From a virus (taxonomy: Duplodnaviria > Heunggongvirae > Uroviricota > Caudoviricetes), in the IMG/VR virus record IMGVR_UViG_2571042372_000009: DNA of 16,793 nt; one strand, 5' to 3'. A program made the translations under genes and the position numbers. Positions 1,422 to 12,544 of the stretch are shown here, in pieces (positions within the stretch are counted from its first letter, which is position 1; each line of letters begins with the position of its first letter). The notes beneath the pieces are model-generated. The model searched no databases. It was given only the letters and a program-made list of their open reading frames with translations, and was not told the origin of the DNA.

Positions 1422-3893
1422 TTAAAAATCAGCCTGATTTGGGATCAGTTTTTGCCAGATAGCTGAAACGTATTTTGCCTGGTAACGGGCGTCATCAAGT
1501 GCATTATGGCGCTCACCTTCGAATGGAATAGCCGTTCTGGCATCGAAGTCTATGGCTTTCCCCAGCTCAACGATTGTGCGTACATCGCGATCGTTGTAGT
1601 AACGCCACGGGCAGGGGATCCCCTGCCGTTCGTATGAACGGCGCAAAATCGTGTTGTCGAAGTTGGCTCCATTTCCCCAAACCTGAACAAAAAATTCACC
1701 GGAGTTTTCGTCGATAAATTCCCGCAATTGTAACAGTGCATCATCTAACGGGATTTCATCGGTCATAATGGCAGATTGCGCTTCGCGTGATTGCTTAAGC
1801 CACCATTTAATGGTGTCCCGATCAATGACTCCGCCAGCAGTTTCCAGATCGATAGTCTTACTAAATTCCGGTCCCATATCTCCGGTTTGCGGATCGAAAA
1901 ATATTGCACCTATTGAGATGATCGGGGCATCAGGATTTTTTCCCATGGTTTCAAGGTCGATCATTAGATGGTCACACGTCCTGCTGGTGGATGTGATTTC
2001 GTGATGACCGTTCACCTTAATTGGGTGATCTGCCGTCTCGCCAGTTTCATTATCGCTATTGTGATGCTGATTGCCGCCAGTGTTCTCCTTGTGTGGATGT
2101 TCAGCGCCTTCCATTTCCTCCGGATCATCTTCCTGAACTTCAACCTGATACTCTTCATCGAATGTTTCTTGGTATGTTGCGTCGCCCATCACCGCGCCAC
2201 AATCAGGACAGTTGCCGCCGCCGGTCTGACCGCAGGCGGTGCAGGCTTTTTCCACTTCCTGGTGCGCCACTGGTTCAGGCTGTTTCGTTTCTGGCTCGTT
2301 TTGTAACGCATTTGGACTGTTTTGTTCCGCTTTTTGGTAGTTCCGTTCCGATTCATGCTGGTTCTGGCTCACAGAATCGCGGGTCTGGATCCCCTTAATC
2401 CATTTCGGATCATTCGGGTCACTAATCCCTTCAACAAATTCACCACGTGATGCAGCAAGCAACTTATCGGCGTCAGGCTGGCTGATATTGGCTGCCTGCA
2501 TAATTTTGTTTACTTCGTCAGCGGTAACTTTTATCGGCTCTGGTTGTTCTGAATCTTCAGCGGTATCTACATTTTGCGGTAAGCCCGTGTATGTGCCATT
2601 TTTTCGGGCAAAATATTCTTCTTTTGTGATTTCAGTGGCGCCAGCAGCCAGTGCCTTATCCAGACCAGAAAGTTTGTTTGCGCGACCGTATTTTTCTCCG
2701 TCCTTATCTGCGAAGAGGAAATAGAACGGCCCCTCACGCTCTACAGATGGTTCAGCTTCCGGCGCGGTTTCATTTTTTGGGATATCAGATACCTCAGTTT
2801 CCACTGCATCAGTTTGTGTTTCTGATGACTGGAGAACATCAACAGTGCCCAGGTCTGTTTCTTCATTCTCAAACACGCCCTTTGTCGTCAGGTATTCGCA
2901 GATATATTTGTTCAGTGCTACGGGATCTTTGTGAATGTCGATCGGACGCTCACGGACAAGGCCAAAAATAGTTTGGCGGTCGTAGCGAAGGGCATCAGGC
3001 TGTTTGCGCATTGATGCCGAGATACGCTTCCAGTCTTCGCGGTCGTTGTCGATAACTTCTTTTTTTGCCCAGCGATGGATGCTGCCGTCAATGTTTCCGG
3101 CATCCACATCACCAGGCCAGAGAGCGTAGGCCAGTTCGTCATCCAGTGTTTTCCATGTCTGCTTGTATTCGCGATGAATGGCAGCAATGACCGGGCTGAT
3201 TTTTCCTGTTGAATTTTCAGTGTACTGTTGATTGGCTCTGGCGCGGGCGAGATCAACAACAGACGTGTATTTTCCGGTTTCCTTGCGTTCACCTTCGCGA
3301 CGTTTTTTCCAGATGCGCATCTCTGCCTGAATTTCGGGCCATTTAGCACCAGGAATACATTTATGCTTAACCCACCCAATGGCGTGCAACTTAAGCTCCG
3401 GATACATGGCGTTAACTTCTGGCATTTTCATCAACGCTTCAACGATATGTCCGTCGAATGTTGCCATGTCTTCCTGCAACAATTCCTGTGCGCTAATAAC
3501 CATATCAACGGTGATGTTTTCACATGTGTCGAACTTAACCATGACAGCGTTCTGTACTTCAGGGGCCAGCTTGTCAAAAGTGACGTTCATCGGATCGGAT
3601 TCAGTCTCGACCGGAACAAAGGAAGCAGACGCCTCATCCCAGCGGTTTTCCTGCATATATTCAGCATCCCAGGAATCGAGGGCAGGGCGGGGTATACCGG
3701 GTTTATCCTCGCAAACAAGAAATTTATAAGCGCAGTCCTGAGCAGCCGGATAATGTTCCAGGAATTGCCAGTGAAATTTTGCGCGGGCGCGACGTTCATC
3801 ACCGGCTTCAATGGCAGTGGCTACAGCGACGGCACCTTCTTCCTTTATTGCCTGTTCGTCCGGAATGGCGGCGCAAATAAAGACTTTACTCAT
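1422..3893 (-). CDS. Large prophage exonuclease (DEDDh / DnaQ-like 3'-5' exonuclease C-terminal domain), 823 aa
   Basis: C-terminal region carries Exo I/II/III-like motifs (MIDLETMG; WGNGANFD; HNALDDARY). There is an internal acidic/Q-rich linker and a CxxC-x7-CxxC zinc-ribbon-like motif (CTACGQTGGGNCPDCG). SD-like GAGGT lies upstream of the ATG. It occupies the recombination/exo slot next to xis. Confidence 0.85.
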   Translation of the reverse strand: MSKVFICAAIPDEQAIKEEGAVAVATAIEAGDERRARAKFHWQFLEHYPAAQDCAYKFLVCEDKPGIPRPALDSWDAEYMQENRWDEASASFVPVETESDPMNVTFDKLAPEVQNAVMVKFDTCENITVDMVISAQELLQEDMATFDGHIVEALMKMPEVNAMYPELKLHAIGWVKHKCIPGAKWPEIQAEMRIWKKRREGERKETGKYTSVVDLARARANQQYTENSTGKISPVIAAIHREYKQTWKTLDDELAYALWPGDVDAGNIDGSIHRWAKKEVIDNDREDWKRISASMRKQPDALRYDRQTIFGLVRERPIDIHKDPVALNKYICEYLTTKGVFENEETDLGTVDVLQSSETQTDAVETEVSDIPKNETAPEAEPSVEREGPFYFLFADKDGEKYGRANKLSGLDKALAAGATEITKEEYFARKNGTYTGLPQNVDTAEDSEQPEPIKVTADEVNKIMQAANISQPDADKLLAASRGEFVEGISDPNDPKWIKGIQTRDSVSQNQHESERNYQKAEQNSPNALQNEPETKQPEPVAHQEVEKACTACGQTGGGNCPDCGAVMGDATYQETFDEEYQVEVQEDDPEEMEGAEHPHKENTGGNQHHNSDNETGETADHPIKVNGHHEITSTSRTCDHLMIDLETMGKNPDAPIISIGAIFFDPQTGDMGPEFSKTIDLETAGGVIDRDTIKWWLKQSREAQSAIMTDEIPLDDALLQLREFIDENSGEFFVQVWGNGANFDNTILRRSYERQGIPCPWRYYNDRDVRTIVELGKAIDFDARTAIPFEGERHNALDDARYQAKYVSAIWQKLIPNQADF

Positions 3894-3993: not shown

Positions 3994-4269
3994 GTGGCTT
4001 CTGTTTCTATCAGCTGTCCCTCCTGTTCAGCTACTGACGGGGTGGTGCGTAACGGCAAAAGCACCGCCGGACATCAGCGCTATCTCTGCTCTCACTGCCG
4101 TAAAACATGGCAACTGCAGTTCACTTACACCGCTTCTCAACCCGGTACGTACCAGAAAATCATTGATATGGCCATGAATGGCGTTGGATGCCGGGCAACT
4201 GCCCGCATTATGGGCGTTGGCCTCAACACGATTTTACGTCACTTAAAAAACTCAGGCCGCAGTCGGTAA
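3994..4269 (+). CDS. insA: IS1 InsA (transposition inhibitor / N-terminal part of InsAB' transposase), 91 aa
   Basis: [23 protein letters not shown]... zinc-finger N-terminus characteristic of IS1 InsA; lies inside the IS1 boundaries. Confidence 0.9.
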
Positions 4270-4691
4270 CCTCGCGCATACAGCCGGGCAGTGACGTCAT
4301 CGTCTGCGCGGAAATGGACGAACAGTGGGGCTATGTCGGGGCTAAATCGCGCCAGCGCTGGCTGTTTTACGCGTATGACAGTCTCCGGAAGACGGTTGTT
4401 GCGCACGTATTCGGTGAACGCACTATGGCGACGCTGGGGCGTCTTATGAGCCTGCTGTCACCCTTTGACGTGGTGATATGGATGACGGATGGCTGGCCGC
4501 TGTATGAATCCCGCCTGAAGGGAAAGCTGCACGTAATCAGCAAGCGATATACGCAGCGAATTGAGCGGCATAACCTGAATCTGAGGCAGCACCTGGCACG
4601 GCTGGGACGGAAGTCGCTGTCGTTCTCAAAATCGGTGGAGCTGCATGACAAAGTCATCGGGCATTATCTGAACATAAAACACTATCAATAA
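4188..4691 (+). CDS. insB: IS1 InsB (expressed as InsAB' transposase by -1 frameshift), 167 aa
   Basis: Overlaps the insA 3' end in the -1 frame downstream of the A-run slippery site; length and position as in IS1. Confidence 0.85.
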
Positions 4692-4706: not shown

Positions 4707-5159
4707 GAGAAAGATGATGTCTACATAGCCAATTGTATAGAAAAAGGTAAGACTGAATTTAAAGTAAGCAAAGATATTGCTGCGTTGCCTTTCAAGGGTG
4801 AACCCATCGAGAAAATTAGGGGAGAGCTAATCAGGTCAATCAAGGAACACTTGATCAGTGCAAGCTGGCATAGCACTAAAAAGGTAATCGACCGCTATGA
4901 AGCTACATTCGATATAAAAGTACAAAAAGACTGTCCGATAGAAGCTATTGAATTGGCAACCCTCAATCGAAATCACTTAGTGCATCGTGGTGGAAAGGAT
5001 AAAGAAGGGAACCTCGTAGTGATTACAGACCAGGATCTTGAAACGCTGATTGAAAATGCATCGAACCTGGCAATTATGCTCTACAACAGTTTAAATGTAG
5101 CAACGAATAAAACCACCATTTTGCAACCAGATGACAAACCGTTCATTCATGAATTTTAA
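4707..5159 (+). pseudogene. 5'-truncated ORF interrupted by IS1; product carries a HEPN-like R-x4-H motif (RNHLVH)
   Basis: The reading frame is open from the IS1 right end to TAA at 5157-5159 with no in-frame ATG/GTG. The first possible start is TTG at 4785 with no SD. Motif ...IEAIELATLNRNHLVHRGG... (R codon at 4968-4970, H codon at 4983-4985). Visibly AT-rich relative to flanking phage genes. Confidence 0.5.
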
Positions 5160-6176: not shown

Positions 6177-6492
6177 TTTATGAATCAGTCTGTGGAGTTA
6201 GGGTTGGTGTCAACAAGTAGGGTAAGAGCCTCAACGTGATGCTATGCCGACCTGCTCCCTGAGAATTCACACAGAAGGCTGCTAGCAATGTCTGCAGATC
6301 GCTCAAAGCGGACTAGAAGGTTAGCTTGCGTCGGACTTGGCGTATTTAAAGAAGTGCTGGTGGTGACTGGTTGTTGTGTTCCATTTCTACAGAACAAAAT
6401 CACAGAAACTATACCCAATAGTTATATTGAATCAATGATGAGACAGCCTCATATTTATCAGAACTGGTGTACGTCCAATACAGGAGGTTGTC

Positions 6493-6582
6493 GTGCTGGT
6501 TCTCAAATGTGCGCTAGCTATTGCGGCTGTAATGGCAATTTATTGTCTTGCTGTTGTTCTTATGGATCGCCTTTCTGATTGA
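6493..6582 (+). CDS. Candidate small hydrophobic peptide, 29 aa (GTG start)
   Basis: Consensus SD AGGAGG at 6483-6488, four nt before GTG. Product VLVLKCALAIAAVMAIYCLAVVLMDRLSD is one predicted transmembrane helix. A possible TTGAAT-17-CATATT promoter lies upstream. Not in the ORF track because it is under 60 aa. Confidence 0.3.
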   Translation: MLVLKCALAIAAVMAIYCLAVVLMDRLSD

Positions 6583-6636
6583 TTTTATATTGGCGAGGTG
6601 ACGGGAGTTAAGTAGAATTGCTGCGGGTGCTTGAGG

Positions 6637-6672
6637 CTATCTGCCTCAGGCATGAACACCAAAGGCAGATAG
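6637..6672 (+). promoter_or_regulatory. Perfect 10-bp inverted repeat (CTATCTGCCT ... AGGCAGATAG) in the hok/mok leader
   Basis: Arms at 6637-6646 and 6663-6672 with a 16-nt spacer. Candidate hok mRNA fold-back or antisense-target element, or a protein operator. Confidence 0.4.
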
Positions 6673-6793
6673 AGAAAAGCCCCAGTTAATATTACGCGTC
6701 CTGCAAGACGCTTAACATTAATCTGAGGCTCAATCTATGAACGGCAAATCTAGGTTAGCCTCTTACGTGCCGAAAGGCAAGGAGAAGCAGGCT

Positions 6794-6949
6794 ATGAAGC
6801 AGCAAAAGGCGATGTTAATCGCCCTGATCGTCATCTGTTTAACCGTCATAGTGACGGCACTGGTAACGAGGAAAGACCTCTGCGAGGTACGAATCCGAAC
6901 CGGCCAGACGGAGGTCGCTGTCTTCACAGTTTACGAACCTGAGGAGTAA
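6794..6949 (+). CDS. hokD: Hok/Gef family type I toxin (HokD/RelF-like), 51 aa, nested in the mok frame that starts at 6737
   Basis: MKQQKAMLIALIVICLTVIVTALVTRKDLCEVRIRTGQTEVAVFTVYEPEE matches the Hok/Gef family as recalled. The overlapping upstream in-frame extension (70-aa ORF from 6737) is mok-like. A stable 3' hairpin follows. Confidence 0.85.
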   Translation: MKQQKAMLIALIVICLTVIVTALVTRKDLCEVRIRTGQTEVAVFTVYEPEE

Positions 6950-7019
6950 GAGACCCGGCGAGGGAGAAATCCCTCGCCACCTCTGATGTGTCAGGCATCC
7001 TCAACGCACCCGCACGTAA

Positions 7020-7044
7020 CCCGCTTCGGCGGGTTTTGTTTTTT
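7020..7044 (+). terminator. Intrinsic terminator downstream of hok
   Basis: CCCGC-ttcg-GCGGG hairpin followed by TTTTGTTTTTT. Confidence 0.7.
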
Positions 7045-7116
7045 CCTGGCATTCTGGTTTACAATTCGCACGCCAGCCTGAACAACTGGCACCTGCTGCG
7101 CCAGCAGAGACAACCG

Positions 7117-11319: not shown

Positions 11320-11395
11320 GGCCCTTTAGCTCAGTGGTGAGAGCGAGCGACTCATAATCGCCAGGTCGCTGGTTCAAATCCAGCAAGGGCCACCA
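11320..11395 (+). tRNA. tRNA with CAU anticodon (Ile2/lysidine type or Met), 76 nt
   Basis: Manual fold: acceptor GGCCCTT/AAGGGCC, D-arm GCTC/GAGC, anticodon loop CTCATAA, T-loop TTCAAAT, 3' CCA encoded. Resembles ileX/ileZ-type genes as recalled. Confidence 0.85.
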
Positions 11396-11402
11396 TCACA
11401 TA

Positions 11403-11479
11403 CCGCCATTAGCTCATCAGGAAAGAGCGCCAGCCTTCGAAGCTGGTTGCGCGGAGTTCGGGTCCCCGAAGGCGGTCCA
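11403..11479 (+). tRNA. tRNA-Arg (UCG anticodon), atypical, 77 nt
   Basis: Manual fold: anticodon stem CCAGC/GCTGG with loop CTTCGAA. One acceptor-stem mismatch (A6/A67), one T-stem mismatch, and T-loop TTCGGGT with G at the usually conserved A58 position. CCA encoded. Confidence 0.6.
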
Positions 11480-11492
11480 TTATCTGTATCCT

Positions 11493-11569
11493 GCGTTGTT
11501 AGCTCAGCCGGACAGAGCAATTGCCTTCTAAGCAATCGGTCACTGGTTCGAATCCAGTACAACGCGCCA
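11493..11569 (+). tRNA. tRNA-Arg (UCU anticodon), 77 nt
   Basis: Manual fold: perfect acceptor stem GCGTTGT/ACAACGC, anticodon stem ATTGC/GCAAT with loop CTTCTAA, T-loop TTCGAAT, CCA encoded. Confidence 0.85.
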
Positions 11570-11614: not shown

Positions 11615-11830
11615 CTCACAATTCAGGCGGTTGACTGTTGTCTGGTTTGCGGGGAGTTTGTTAAAAGAAACTGGCATGGTGAATCCCCCTGTGCGGAGGG
11701 GCAATCAGCGAGTAGGTATATGGGATAATCGCGGATTCAGGTGCTGGTACTGAATTCACCGGGAGGCACCCGGCACCATGCAATGGCACATAGCGCCACT
11801 CTCCAGCCCCTCTCCGGAGGGGCTTTTCTG
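11615..11830 (+). ncRNA. Candidate structured noncoding RNA module, copy A
   Basis: Begins just after a terminator with CTCACAATTCAG...TTGACT. Contains three hairpins (CCCCCT-gtgcgg-AGGGG; CCGGG-aggca-CCCGG; GCCCCTC-tccg-GAGGGGC followed by TTTTCT). The same architecture recurs in copy B while the ORFs are not conserved. Confidence 0.4.
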
Positions 11831-12082
11831 TGCCGGATACATCACAGTTTCTGGAACCTTAGGTACTACAGTATCAGTCAGGGTGCTATATTTTCAGATG
11901 TGATGAAAGCCTGTCAGCAGGCAGGGCGTATCGGAAATGACCCAGTAGAGAAAACGTTGACTCAGATACCGGTGCTGAGTTACCGGGAAACCGGCATCAC
12001 ATGACCGCTATCCTTCCAGGCCCATCCGCTCCGGTGGGCCTTTTTACTGCAGAAAACAGGTTCCCCGTTAAATGCTATGTTG

Positions 12083-12317
12083 CTCACAATTCAGTAAGTT
12101 GACAGTTGCCTGTCAGACTGGGCATTTGTTAAAAAAATTTCGCATGGTGAATCCCCCTGAGCGGAGGGGCGACTGGTGACGGTATAATCTCTGATTATCA
12201 AAACGAGAATGACGCGGGTTTAGTGGCACCGGGCTGAACTCACCGGGAGGCACCCGGCACCATGTGCATGATGATACAGATACGCGGCTTTAGCCCCTCT
12301 CCGGAGGGGTTTTCTTG
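12083..12317 (+). ncRNA. Candidate structured noncoding RNA module, copy B (divergent paralogue of copy A)
   Basis: CTCACAATTCAG...TTGACA start, the same three hairpins with conserved stems, and a terminal GCCCCTC-tccg-GAGGGG + TTTTCTT terminator. Preceded by another terminator (GGCCCA...TGGGCC + T5 at about 12019-12045). Confidence 0.4.
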
Positions 12318-12544
12318 TGGGCAAAAAAAGCCCGCGCTGGGAGACGCGGGCGGCAAGGAATAAACAATAAAACGTGAAGTAATATTTCAGCTGGCGAATA
12401 ATACCCCATAGTAATCACTCTGCGCAACTGCGCGGTCTTTTTCGAATTGCGGGCTGTCGTCTCTCTTCTGCCATTGTCCTGTAACTTCCGGACTTCAGCC
12501 CGCTCCTTATTTTACTCACAATATTATCCCGGCCGGGAGGATTC

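What the first reader, a model, noticed from the sequence alone, without database searches (positions are those of the whole stretch)
6483..6582. Strongly initiated 29-aa hydrophobic mini-ORF upstream of hok
A consensus AGGAGG SD precedes a GTG start for a 29-residue, almost entirely hydrophobic peptide with a charged tail (MDRLSD), about 200 bp upstream of hok. Size, hydrophobicity and strong SD resemble type I toxins or small membrane-acting phage peptides. It overlaps the implausible Cys-rich 96-aa ORF from the track in another frame. If real, the locus would carry two small membrane peptides in tandem.
Basis: seen in the sequence. Interest (0 to 1): 0.45.

Follow-up and report, generated by a model that had tools for sequence, protein, structure and literature searches.

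The report
Conserved 29-aa membrane peptide gene beside hokD
The small ORF is a real, evolutionarily conserved gene for a 29-residue single-helix membrane peptide that sits just upstream of the hokD toxin promoter in many E. coli prophages and on Shigella virulence plasmids, but nothing found here shows it is a toxin and its function is untested.

Summary
AGGAGG lies at 6482-6487, a 5-nt spacer follows, and a GTG-started 29-codon ORF runs 6493-6582. It is the only strong SD-plus-ORF combination in the window and the most hydrophobic short ORF.

It is a gene, not chance. It was intact in 118/118 loci sampled through their flanks. The Shigella plasmid copy gives dN/dS about 0.16, and synonymous changes are in excess (P about 0.0008). 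The SD is kept in four unrelated upstream contexts. The overlapping 96-aa ORF is not coding.

A 34-aa paralogue (54% identical) occupies the same position in EHEC prophages. It was reported as XECs145, with strong ribosome footprints in growing Sakai cells.

The peptide has no Pfam, NCBIfam or PHROG family and no similarity to Hok. The family was found only in Escherichia and Shigella.

The type I toxin reading is not supported. I found no conserved antisense promoter, terminator or RNA structure, and no antisense start site in Shigella dRNA-seq. The paralogue is translated freely in growing cells. Peptide and hok each occur without the other.

Best reading: an independent, prophage-borne small inner-membrane protein of unknown target. 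This is a new member of a known kind and of moderate interest.

The parts
6427..6432 (+). Putative -35 hexamer TTGAAT of a promoter for the mini-ORF (inferred)
   Evidence: TTGAA(T/G) or TTGAGT sits exactly 17 nt from CATATT in five upstream contexts whose spacer sequences differ strongly. It is an 8/12 consensus match, below the scan tool's threshold. It is lost in some lineages (L035 group, L021, L011). No TSS was seen at the equivalent place in Shigella pWR100.
6450..6455 (+). Putative -10 hexamer CATATT (inferred); also roughly the left edge of the block conserved in all upstream contexts
   Evidence: CATATT is invariant in the 7-sequence alignment of divergent contexts.
6482..6487 (+). 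Shine-Dalgarno AGGAGG, 5 nt before the start codon
   Evidence: A strong SD is kept in unrelated contexts: AGGAGG, AGGAGA, GGGAGG, and AAGGAGGG in the 34-aa paralogue.
6493..6582 (+). Mini-ORF: GTG start, 29 codons, TGA stop. Predicted single transmembrane helix (about residues 6-24) with a D-R-L-S-D tail
   Evidence: It is intact in 118/118 flank-anchored loci. dN/dS is 0.16 against the Shigella plasmid copy. There are 32 synonymous and 32 nonsynonymous changes on the haplotype tree, against 19.4 +/- 3.7 synonymous expected (P about 0.0008).
6590..6618 (+). hokD mRNA promoter (-35 TTGGCG, 17-nt spacer, -10 TAGAAT). It begins 7 nt after the mini-ORF stop
   Evidence: The hok leader homology starts just downstream.
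6625..6799 (+). hok mRNA leader / sok region
   Evidence: Rfam RF01794, 113 bits, E 1e-25.
6794..6949 (+). hokD coding sequence (51 aa). An in-frame upstream extension from 6737 is the mok-like ORF
   Evidence: RefSeq annotation of the identical UTI89 sequence. Pfam HOK_GEF E 6e-22.
7018..7045 (+). Intrinsic terminator ending the hok transcript. It is the first convincing terminator downstream of the mini-ORF
   Evidence: 7-bp stem, 5 G-C pairs, then a T run.

Best explanation
The mini-ORF is a real protein-coding gene. It belongs to an unnamed, Escherichia/Shigella-restricted family of 29-34-aa peptides carried by lambdoid prophages.

What the sequence shows. The product is one hydrophobic helix, about residues 6-24, with small residues at positions 7, 9, 12 and 15. 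It carries an invariant Tyr17 and a near-invariant Cys18. A conserved juxtamembrane motif L-M-(D/E)-R follows, then a short polar tail.

Shown. The coding frame is under purifying selection. A strong ribosome-binding site is maintained in unrelated upstream contexts. The 34-aa paralogue carries dense ribosome footprints in growing EHEC.

Inferred. The peptide inserts into the inner membrane. It acts through helix-helix contacts, with itself or with a host or phage membrane protein. In this it resembles other small bacterial membrane proteins, not a Hok-type killer.

Inferred expression. The gene is a compact cassette of about 150-175 bp wedged between the variable cargo region and the hokD promoter. 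In this window IS1 has removed the immunity and replication region. Expression therefore probably depends on the weak conserved promoter TTGAAT-17-CATATT. No terminator precedes the hok terminator, so transcripts would read through the hok locus.

The link to hok looks positional and inherited, not functional. Each element occurs without the other, and the same HokD protein is found beside both peptide types.
For: Coding signature.
- Against the Shigella plasmid copy there are 10 synonymous and 7 nonsynonymous differences (dN/dS 0.16). Against the 34-aa type dN/dS is 0.17. The frame of the 96-aa ORF gives about 5.
- On a spanning tree of 30 haplotypes there are 32 synonymous changes, against 19.4 +/- 3.7 expected (P about 0.0008). 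The other two frames give 18/46 and 9/55.

Integrity. The ORF is intact in 118/118 loci found through flanks only. All 143 plasmid hits cover at least 80% of the peptide.

Initiation signals. The SD is retained in four different upstream contexts. The start is GTG in 97 of 101 loci and ATG in the three Shigella-type plasmid copies.

Paralogue. MSDDISLAMEGALAVIAVVGVYCLVVFLMDRLGN is 54% identical (pairwise E 5e-10). It lies at the same place, before hokD-DUF968-rusA-Q. It occurs in 674 genomes, at a median of 3 matching places per genome with any match, and PGAP annotates it.

Translation of the paralogue. XECs145 in Huecker et al. 2017 (PMC5597208, S2 Table) has, in LB, RNA RPKM 79, ribosome RPKM 346, RCV 4.35 and coverage 0.99. 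The mean RCV of short annotated genes is 1.55. It was predicted to be an inner-membrane protein with one helix.

Independence from hok.
- The peptide persists intact where hok is truncated (Shigella plasmids, before icsP) or absent (L008, L017).
- Most hok-bearing phage records lack it: 4 of 102.
- HokD WP_000813254.1 accompanies both peptide types.

Promoter. The two hexamers are kept at fixed spacing while the spacer diverges. The window lacks the early operon.
Against: - There is no direct translation, localisation or phenotype data for the 29-aa form itself.
- The XECs145 interval also covers the end of a neighbouring 27-aa ORF in another frame, so some footprints may belong to that ORF.
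- The proposed promoter matches only 8 of 12 consensus positions. It is absent in some lineages. No TSS was reported at the equivalent position in Shigella M90T; the nearest same-strand TSS lies 321 nt upstream.
- Within the shallow haplotype tree half of the changes are nonsynonymous, so constraint is moderate.
- Window and Shigella copies differ synonymously only in the 5' half of the ORF. This points to a recombinant history and makes a single dN/dS value approximate.
- No interaction partner is known. The claim that it acts by helix contacts and is not a toxin rests on sequence features and on tolerated translation of the paralogue.
Confidence: 0.55

Rival explanations
1. It is a second membrane toxin of the type I kind. 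The peptide depolarises or permeabilises the inner membrane when made, and an RNA not yet recognised keeps it in check.
For: - Size, hydrophobicity and prophage location fit the class.
- It sits beside a bona fide type I toxin.
- In the window haplotype a promoter-like site TTAACT-18-TAAAAT (6611 to 6582) would give an RNA antisense to the 3' end of the ORF.
- RNAalifold can pair the SD with CCUUUCUG in the last codons.
Against: - The antisense -10 needs T6586. Of 118 loci, 51 have C and 3 have G there.
- There is no minus-strand terminator.
- Folding z-scores are -0.6 and -0.5. The covariation term is only -1.2 kcal/mol, and the SD/anti-SD pairing is absent in the 34-aa type.
- No Rfam family and no toxin family matches.
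- No antisense TSS was found at the Shigella copy.
- The paralogue is translated above average in growing cells.
- The tail is net acidic or neutral. Many type I toxins have a basic tail (my own knowledge, not tested here).
Confidence: 0.2
2. It is a functional partner of hok. Either the peptide modulates Hok in the membrane, or transcription and translation of the mini-ORF running into the hok promoter 7 nt downstream alters hok/sok expression or hok mRNA folding.
For: - About 97% of sampled 29-aa loci are followed by the hok promoter and leader.
- Both diverged peptide types keep the same position.
- Other hok-bearing phages carry different small hydrophobic ORFs at that spot: 27 aa in 933W-type phages and 72 aa in vB_EcoS-640R1.
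- No terminator separates the two genes.
Against: - The peptide is kept intact in 135 or more Shigella-type plasmids where hok is truncated, and in L008/L017 where it is absent.
- Ninety-eight of 102 hok-bearing phage records lack it.
- The same HokD protein pairs with either peptide type, so there is no co-variation.
- The two proteins share no sequence similarity.
Confidence: 0.1
3. It is translated but functionless. The ORF persists because the cassette spreads with a successful prophage segment and is too small and too young to have decayed.
For: - The family is confined to Escherichia and Shigella.
- Most copies are more than 90% identical.
- Half of the recent changes are nonsynonymous.
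- One natural 11-nt deletion exists.
Against: - Synonymous divergence is near saturation in the 5' half against the Shigella copy and across the whole ORF against the 34-aa type. The helix, Tyr-Cys and LM(D/E)R motifs, length and SD are nevertheless preserved.
- Flanking non-coding DNA at the same divergence is largely unalignable.
- No frameshift or stop was seen in 118 flank-anchored loci.
Confidence: 0.1
4. It is a leader peptide or regulatory upstream ORF. Only the act of translating it matters, to control downstream transcription.
For: The ORF is short, has a strong SD and lies immediately upstream of another gene's control region.
Against: - Selection acts on the amino-acid sequence along the whole helix, not on a short stalling motif.
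- No terminator/antiterminator alternative structures are present.
- The downstream gene has its own promoter.
- The ORF is maintained before unrelated downstream genes: icsP, and a gene on the opposite strand in L008.
Confidence: 0.03

Closest known systems
XECs145 / WP_001278450.1 family: 34-aa hypothetical protein of EHEC O157:H7 prophages (Huecker et al. 2017, PMC5597208)
   Same: It is homologous: 15 of 28 residues identical, with the same Y-C-L-x-V-x-L-M-D-R-L tail. It has the same length class and one predicted helix. It occupies the same position, immediately upstream of the hokD promoter and before DUF968-rusA-Q. It is also uncharacterised.
   Different: It has five extra acidic N-terminal residues and an ATG start. 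A roughly 35-nt palindromic insert lies between its stop and the hok -35. I saw no obvious own promoter, and a further 27-aa hydrophobic ORF precedes it. PGAP annotates it and Ribo-seq supports it. The 29-aa form has neither in the records seen here.
Hok/Gef type I toxins with Sok antisense RNA (the adjacent hokD locus)
   Same: Both are small hydrophobic inner-membrane peptides encoded on prophages and plasmids, and here they are direct neighbours.
   Different: There is no sequence similarity and no PF01848 match. The peptide has 29 aa against 51 and lacks a periplasmic domain. It has no mok-like coupling ORF, no long folded leader, no Sok-like RNA and no Rfam hit.
Other short type I toxins of E. 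coli, such as ZorO (29 aa), TisB, ShoB, Ibs and DinQ
   Same: Similar size and a single hydrophobic helix. ZorO is likewise absent from K-12 and present in pathogenic strains (Fozo et al. 2010, PMC2887945).
   Different: Those loci are defined by a demonstrated antitoxin RNA and a translationally inert primary mRNA. Neither was found here. No family match was found.
Small single-pass regulatory membrane proteins of enterobacteria (MgtS, AcrZ, MgrB, PmrR and similar)
   Same: They are about 30-50 aa with one helix. They are efficiently translated in growing cells without harm and have specific conserved residues within or next to the helix. This is the class whose mode of action I infer by analogy.
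   Different: There is no sequence relationship, and no partner or regulon is known. This peptide is carried on mobile prophage DNA and is not a core-genome gene.

Membership tests
Type I toxin-antitoxin system | Small (under 60 aa) hydrophobic membrane peptide | tested here: met
   29 aa, GRAVY 1.81, and a 19-residue hydrophobic stretch.
Type I toxin-antitoxin system | Cis-antisense or divergent small RNA that pairs with the toxin mRNA | tested here: not met
   The only antisense promoter-like site depends on a polymorphic base. There is no minus-strand terminator, no Rfam hit and no antisense TSS at the Shigella copy. Absence in silico is not proof.
Type I toxin-antitoxin system | Structured, translationally inert primary mRNA with a sequestered SD | tested here: not met
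   The folding z-score is -0.6. The window's local stem around the SD is broken in relatives. The alifold covariation term is -1.2 kcal/mol.
Type I toxin-antitoxin system | Toxin translation repressed during normal growth | tested here: not met
   Paralogue only. XECs145 has RCV 4.35 in LB, against a mean of 1.55 for short annotated genes. There are no data for the 29-aa form.
Type I toxin-antitoxin system | Growth arrest or killing on overexpression | not testable with these tools
   This needs an inducible-expression experiment.
Hok/Gef family (PF01848) | Match to the family profile or alignment with Hok | tested here: not met
   There is no Pfam or NCBIfam hit at E up to 10. BLASTP against the window's HokD gives no alignment.
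29-34-aa hokD-upstream peptide family (XECs145 / WP_001278450.1; unnamed) | Sequence homology, including the Y-C-L-x-V-x-L-M-(D/E)-R tail | tested here: met
   54% identity, pairwise E 5e-10; alignment A1.
29-34-aa hokD-upstream peptide family (XECs145 / WP_001278450.1; unnamed) | Position immediately upstream of the hokD promoter in a lambdoid prophage | tested here: met
   Window; IncY plasmid, pNJS001-2 and EDL933.
Prophage moron (autonomously expressed accessory cassette) | Own promoter and terminator, and expression from the repressed prophage | tested here: inconclusive
   Conserved weak hexamers sit at fixed spacing, but no TSS was seen in Shigella. The peptide has no terminator of its own and shares the hok terminator. 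The paralogue is transcribed and translated in uninduced EHEC.
Leader peptide / attenuator | Alternative terminator/antiterminator structures downstream of a short ORF | tested here: not met
   There is no terminator between the ORF and hok, and no significant structure.

The most novel reading that the evidence does not exclude
The 29-34-aa peptides, and the unrelated 27-aa and 72-aa hydrophobic ORFs found at the same spot in other hok-bearing phages, could be functional companions of Hok. One possibility is a membrane partner that tunes or gates Hok killing. Another is a second effector that turns the hok locus into a two-peptide membrane module. If so, a component of one of the best-studied toxin systems has been overlooked. 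It would be present in over 40% of complete E. coli genomes if the carriers of the two peptide types barely overlap (1769 with the 29-aa form and 674 with the 34-aa form, of 5426; overlap not checked), and in the Shigella virulence plasmid upstream of icsP.
Probability: 0.1. Interest if true: 0.6.

Novelty: new member of a known kind. Interest (0 to 1): 0.35.

Why it matters
About a third of complete E. coli genomes (1769 of 5426) carry the 29-aa form, and RefSeq leaves it unannotated in the records examined here. Another 674 carry the 34-aa paralogue. At least 135 Shigella-type virulence plasmids keep an intact copy about 290 bp upstream of icsP.

A conserved, probably well-translated membrane peptide of unknown function in pathogen prophages is a concrete and cheap target for small-protein work. 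Suitable assays include tagging, deletion, phage exclusion and membrane stress.

The result also warns that the DNA just upstream of hokD is not an empty promoter region. This matters for anyone cloning or deleting hok loci or dissecting the icsP regulatory region. It is not a new principle: small single-pass membrane proteins and prophage accessory genes are well-known categories.

Tried and rejected
- Family searches. Pfam, NCBIfam, PHROGs and PADLOC gave nothing for the peptide.
- Rfam. Scans at gathering and permissive thresholds found nothing in 6400-6600.
- Large protein database. The 29-aa query was too short. A 40-aa in-frame extension returned only Escherichia hypothetical or 'membrane protein' entries.
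- Species representatives. The GTDB search found only Escherichia and Shigella, plus three short contigs binned into non-Escherichia metagenome assemblies, which I read as mis-binned E. coli DNA.
- Literature. Searches for the peptide strings and WP accessions found nothing in main texts. The small membrane proteins of the CFT073 Ribo-seq preprint are other genes. The Pro-SMP finder paper, the BLASTn type I TA paper and Fozo 2010 do not mention this ORF.
- SD-sequestering stem. The window has an 11-bp stem, but it is broken in the L002 and Shigella versions, so I dropped it.
- Remnant of the Hok helix. I considered this, but no alignment exists.
- The 96-aa ORF as the real gene. I rejected it because it is frameshifted by indels in L003, L006 and L007, and dN/dS in its frame is about 5.

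Full report
**1. The observation**

- AGGAGG lies at 6482-6487, followed by a 5-nt spacer.
- GTG is at 6493 and TGA at 6580-6582.
- The product is MLVLKCALAIAAVMAIYCLAVVLMDRLSD.
- The stop lies 7 nt before the -35 of the hokD promoter (TTGGCG 6590-6595, TAGAAT 6613-6618).
- It lies 211 nt before the hokD ATG at 6794.

Five AGGAGG sites occur on the two strands of the window. This is the only one followed at 4-9 nt by a start codon and an ORF of at least 20 aa. The ORF is also the most hydrophobic of 112 ORFs of 25-40 aa.

**2. Context**

The stretch 6180-7060 is 100% identical to prophage DNA of UTI89, ATCC 11775, APEC O1 and many other E. coli. RefSeq annotates only hokD there.

The window is a degraded lambdoid prophage. 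In order it carries:
- an integrase;
- an 823-aa exonuclease-like gene;
- IS1;
- a truncated hypothetical gene;
- a 333-aa protein with a weak, sub-threshold GNAT match;
- the mini-ORF and hokD;
- DUF968, rusA and Q;
- a methyltransferase, tRNAs and lysis genes.

IS1 has removed the immunity and replication region. No early-operon promoter lies upstream.

**3. Is it a gene?**

The 211-bp segment around the ORF occurs at 80% coverage or more in 1769 of 5426 complete E. coli genomes, at 91-100% identity. The left-hand neighbours vary widely: an acetyltransferase, DUF4209, SIR2, QueH, IS5 and DUF977.

In 11 loci sampled by DNA similarity the ORF is intact in 10. One has an 11-nt deletion. I also took a sample that did not depend on the ORF, anchored on CAGGAGGTT and ATATTGGCGAG with a free gap. 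All 118 homologous IMG/VR loci kept GTG, 29 codons and the stop. They comprised 23 DNA haplotypes and 15 peptide variants, mostly with conservative changes.

On a minimum spanning tree of 30 haplotypes there are 32 synonymous and 32 nonsynonymous changes. Random placement of the same transitions and transversions gives 19.4 +/- 3.7 synonymous (P about 0.0008). The other two forward frames give 18/46 and 9/55.

**4. Deep comparisons**

tblastn found an intact copy on 135 or more Shigella and EIEC virulence plasmids. In pWR501 it lies at 220153-220239 and reads MLVLKGTLAIAAVMTIYCLIVVLMERFSD.
- It has an ATG start and the identical AGGAGGTTGTC spacer.
- It is followed by the hok promoter and the first 65 nt or so of the hok leader.
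- AT-rich DNA and icsP come next, so hok itself is gone.

Against the window there are 10 synonymous and 7 nonsynonymous differences (dN/dS 0.16). The frame of the 96-aa ORF gives about 5. The synonymous differences are all in the 5' half, where nearly every silent site differs. This suggests a mosaic history.

A more distant relative of 34 aa was found on an IncY plasmid, on pNJS001-2 and in EDL933 prophages: MSDDISLAMEGALAVIAVVGVYCLVVFLMDRLGN.
- It is 54% identical, with pairwise E 5e-10.
- Against the window dN/dS is 0.17, with silent sites saturated.
- It sits at exactly the same place, upstream of the hokD promoter and DUF968-rusA-Q.
- It occurs in 674 genomes. Genomes with any match to that query have a median of 3 matching places. 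PGAP annotates it as a hypothetical protein.

A strong SD is retained in four unrelated upstream contexts. The 96-aa ORF is broken by indels in relatives.

I conclude that the mini-ORF is a protein-coding gene under purifying selection.

**5. Experimental evidence in the literature**

Huecker et al. 2017 (PMC5597208) list the paralogue as novel gene XECs145, called from an upstream ATG (Sakai 1550761-1550922). Values are:

| Condition | RNA RPKM | Ribosome RPKM | RCV | Coverage |
|---|---|---|---|---|
| LB | 79.1 | 346.1 | 4.35 | 0.99 |
| BHI | 121.3 | 150.1 | 1.14 | 0.84 |
| BHI stress | 73.3 | 1.1 | 0.01 | 0.37 |

The mean RCV of short annotated genes in LB was 1.55. XECs145 was predicted to be an inner-membrane protein with one helix. 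One caveat applies. The XECs145 interval also overlaps the end of a 27-aa ORF in another frame.

For the Shigella copy, Cervantes-Rivera et al. 2020 (PMC7132871) annotate it with Prokka as CP037924_00134. None of the sequences I searched in or beside the ORF appears in the 100-bp upstream column of their TSS table, on either strand. The icsP TSSs at 90709 and 90726 served as a positive control for the search. A 'novel' primary TSS lies 321 nt upstream on the same strand.

I found nothing on the 29-aa form itself.

**6. What it is not**

It has no Pfam, NCBIfam, PHROG or PADLOC family. It does not align with HokD and gives no Rfam hit.

The type I reading needs an antitoxin RNA and a silenced mRNA.
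- The one antisense promoter-like site (6611 to 6582) relies on T6586. Of 118 loci, 51 have C and 3 have G there.
- There is no minus-strand terminator.
- Both strands fold no better than shuffles, with z-scores of -0.6 and -0.5.
- The consensus fold has almost no covariation.
- The stem enclosing the SD in the window is broken in relatives.
- Free translation of the paralogue in growing cells also argues against a potent toxin.

**7. Relation to hok**

About 97% of sampled 29-aa loci are followed by the hok promoter. Even so, the association looks positional.
- The peptide survives without hok on the Shigella plasmids and in L008/L017.
- Only 4 of 102 hok-bearing phage records have it.
- The same HokD protein accompanies either peptide type.

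Other hok-bearing phages carry different small hydrophobic ORFs at that spot: 27 aa in 933W-type phages and 72 aa in vB_EcoS-640R1. A functional link is therefore not excluded.

**8. Expression model (inferred)**

The hexamers TTGAAT (6427-6432) and CATATT (6450-6455) are 17 nt apart. They are kept in five upstream contexts whose spacers differ. The match is weak, at 8 of 12 positions. It is absent in some lineages and unconfirmed in Shigella.

No terminator precedes the hok terminator at 7018-7045. Transcripts would therefore run through the hok locus.

**9. Verdict**

The ORF is a genuine member of an unnamed, Escherichia/Shigella-restricted family of prophage small membrane peptides. The toxin interpretation is not supported, though toxicity remains untested. 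This is a new member of a known kind, of moderate interest.

Noticed in passing
L012 (pWR501) 2900-3400; CP037924 c(90908..90997): An intact copy of the mini-ORF, plus the hok promoter and about 65 nt of the hok leader, lies about 290 bp upstream of icsP on Shigella/EIEC virulence plasmids. hok and sok are lost. This region lies upstream of icsP, whose upstream DNA has been studied for VirB/H-NS control (my own knowledge; the extent of the studied interval was not checked). It therefore holds a prophage relic with a conserved small gene.
   Followed up: partly
L103 (EDL933) 2926-3009; L104 (Stx2 phage I) 796-879: A second family of 27-aa hydrophobic ORFs was seen: MIWPEAFAITGVAIAIDFLVYVICRWG and MTWPEAFANVGTVMAVVLVVYSICRWR. 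Their ATG overlaps the stop of the preceding gene (ATGA). The ORF lies directly before the hok -35 in 933W-type phages and before the 34-aa ORF in EDL933. Some EHEC prophages therefore have three small membrane ORFs in a row.
   Followed up: partly
L103 3005-3190 compared with L104 870-900: Relative to the 933W-type arrangement, the 34-aa ORF sits in an insert of about 190 bp bounded by a repeated GGTAAAAACG. The insert also carries a perfect 22-bp palindrome, CGATATGGGAATTCCCATATCG, after the stop. This suggests a discrete inserted cassette.
   Followed up: no
window 6427-6445 equivalents in L035, L034, L037 and L050 (17 loci): In one lineage the putative -35 TTGAAT is replaced by CTCATC. This creates a perfect palindrome, TCTCATCAATGATGAGA, which looks like a hairpin-templated conversion.
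   Followed up: no
window 3994-4691 and flanks: An IS1 element sits where the immunity and replication genes (cI/cro, ydaT, O/P-like) lie in the UTI89 version of this prophage. It is followed by a truncated ORF (4785-5159). The prophage in the window is therefore a deletion derivative without its early promoters.
   Followed up: partly
left of the mini-ORF in related loci (L004-L011): The position just upstream of the mini-ORF is a cargo hotspot. Different strains carry an acetyltransferase, DUF4209, a SIR2-family protein, QueH, IS5 or DUF977 there, all abutting the same conserved block.
   Followed up: partly
window 11645-11835 and 12113-12322; 11320-11566: Two copies of the sRNA STnc100 (136 and 161 bits) and three tRNA genes lie downstream of the Q/methyltransferase region.
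   Followed up: no
window 6958-7039: A sub-threshold Rfam match to IsrK (27.8 bits; gathering score 50) overlaps the hok 3' end and terminator. It is probably driven by the terminator.
   Followed up: no
L105 (PPompW / Stx2a phage) 820-900: Only the last few codons and the 3' palindrome of the 34-aa ORF remain, directly after the paa/adfO adhesin gene. This shows loss of the peptide gene through cargo insertion.
   Followed up: no
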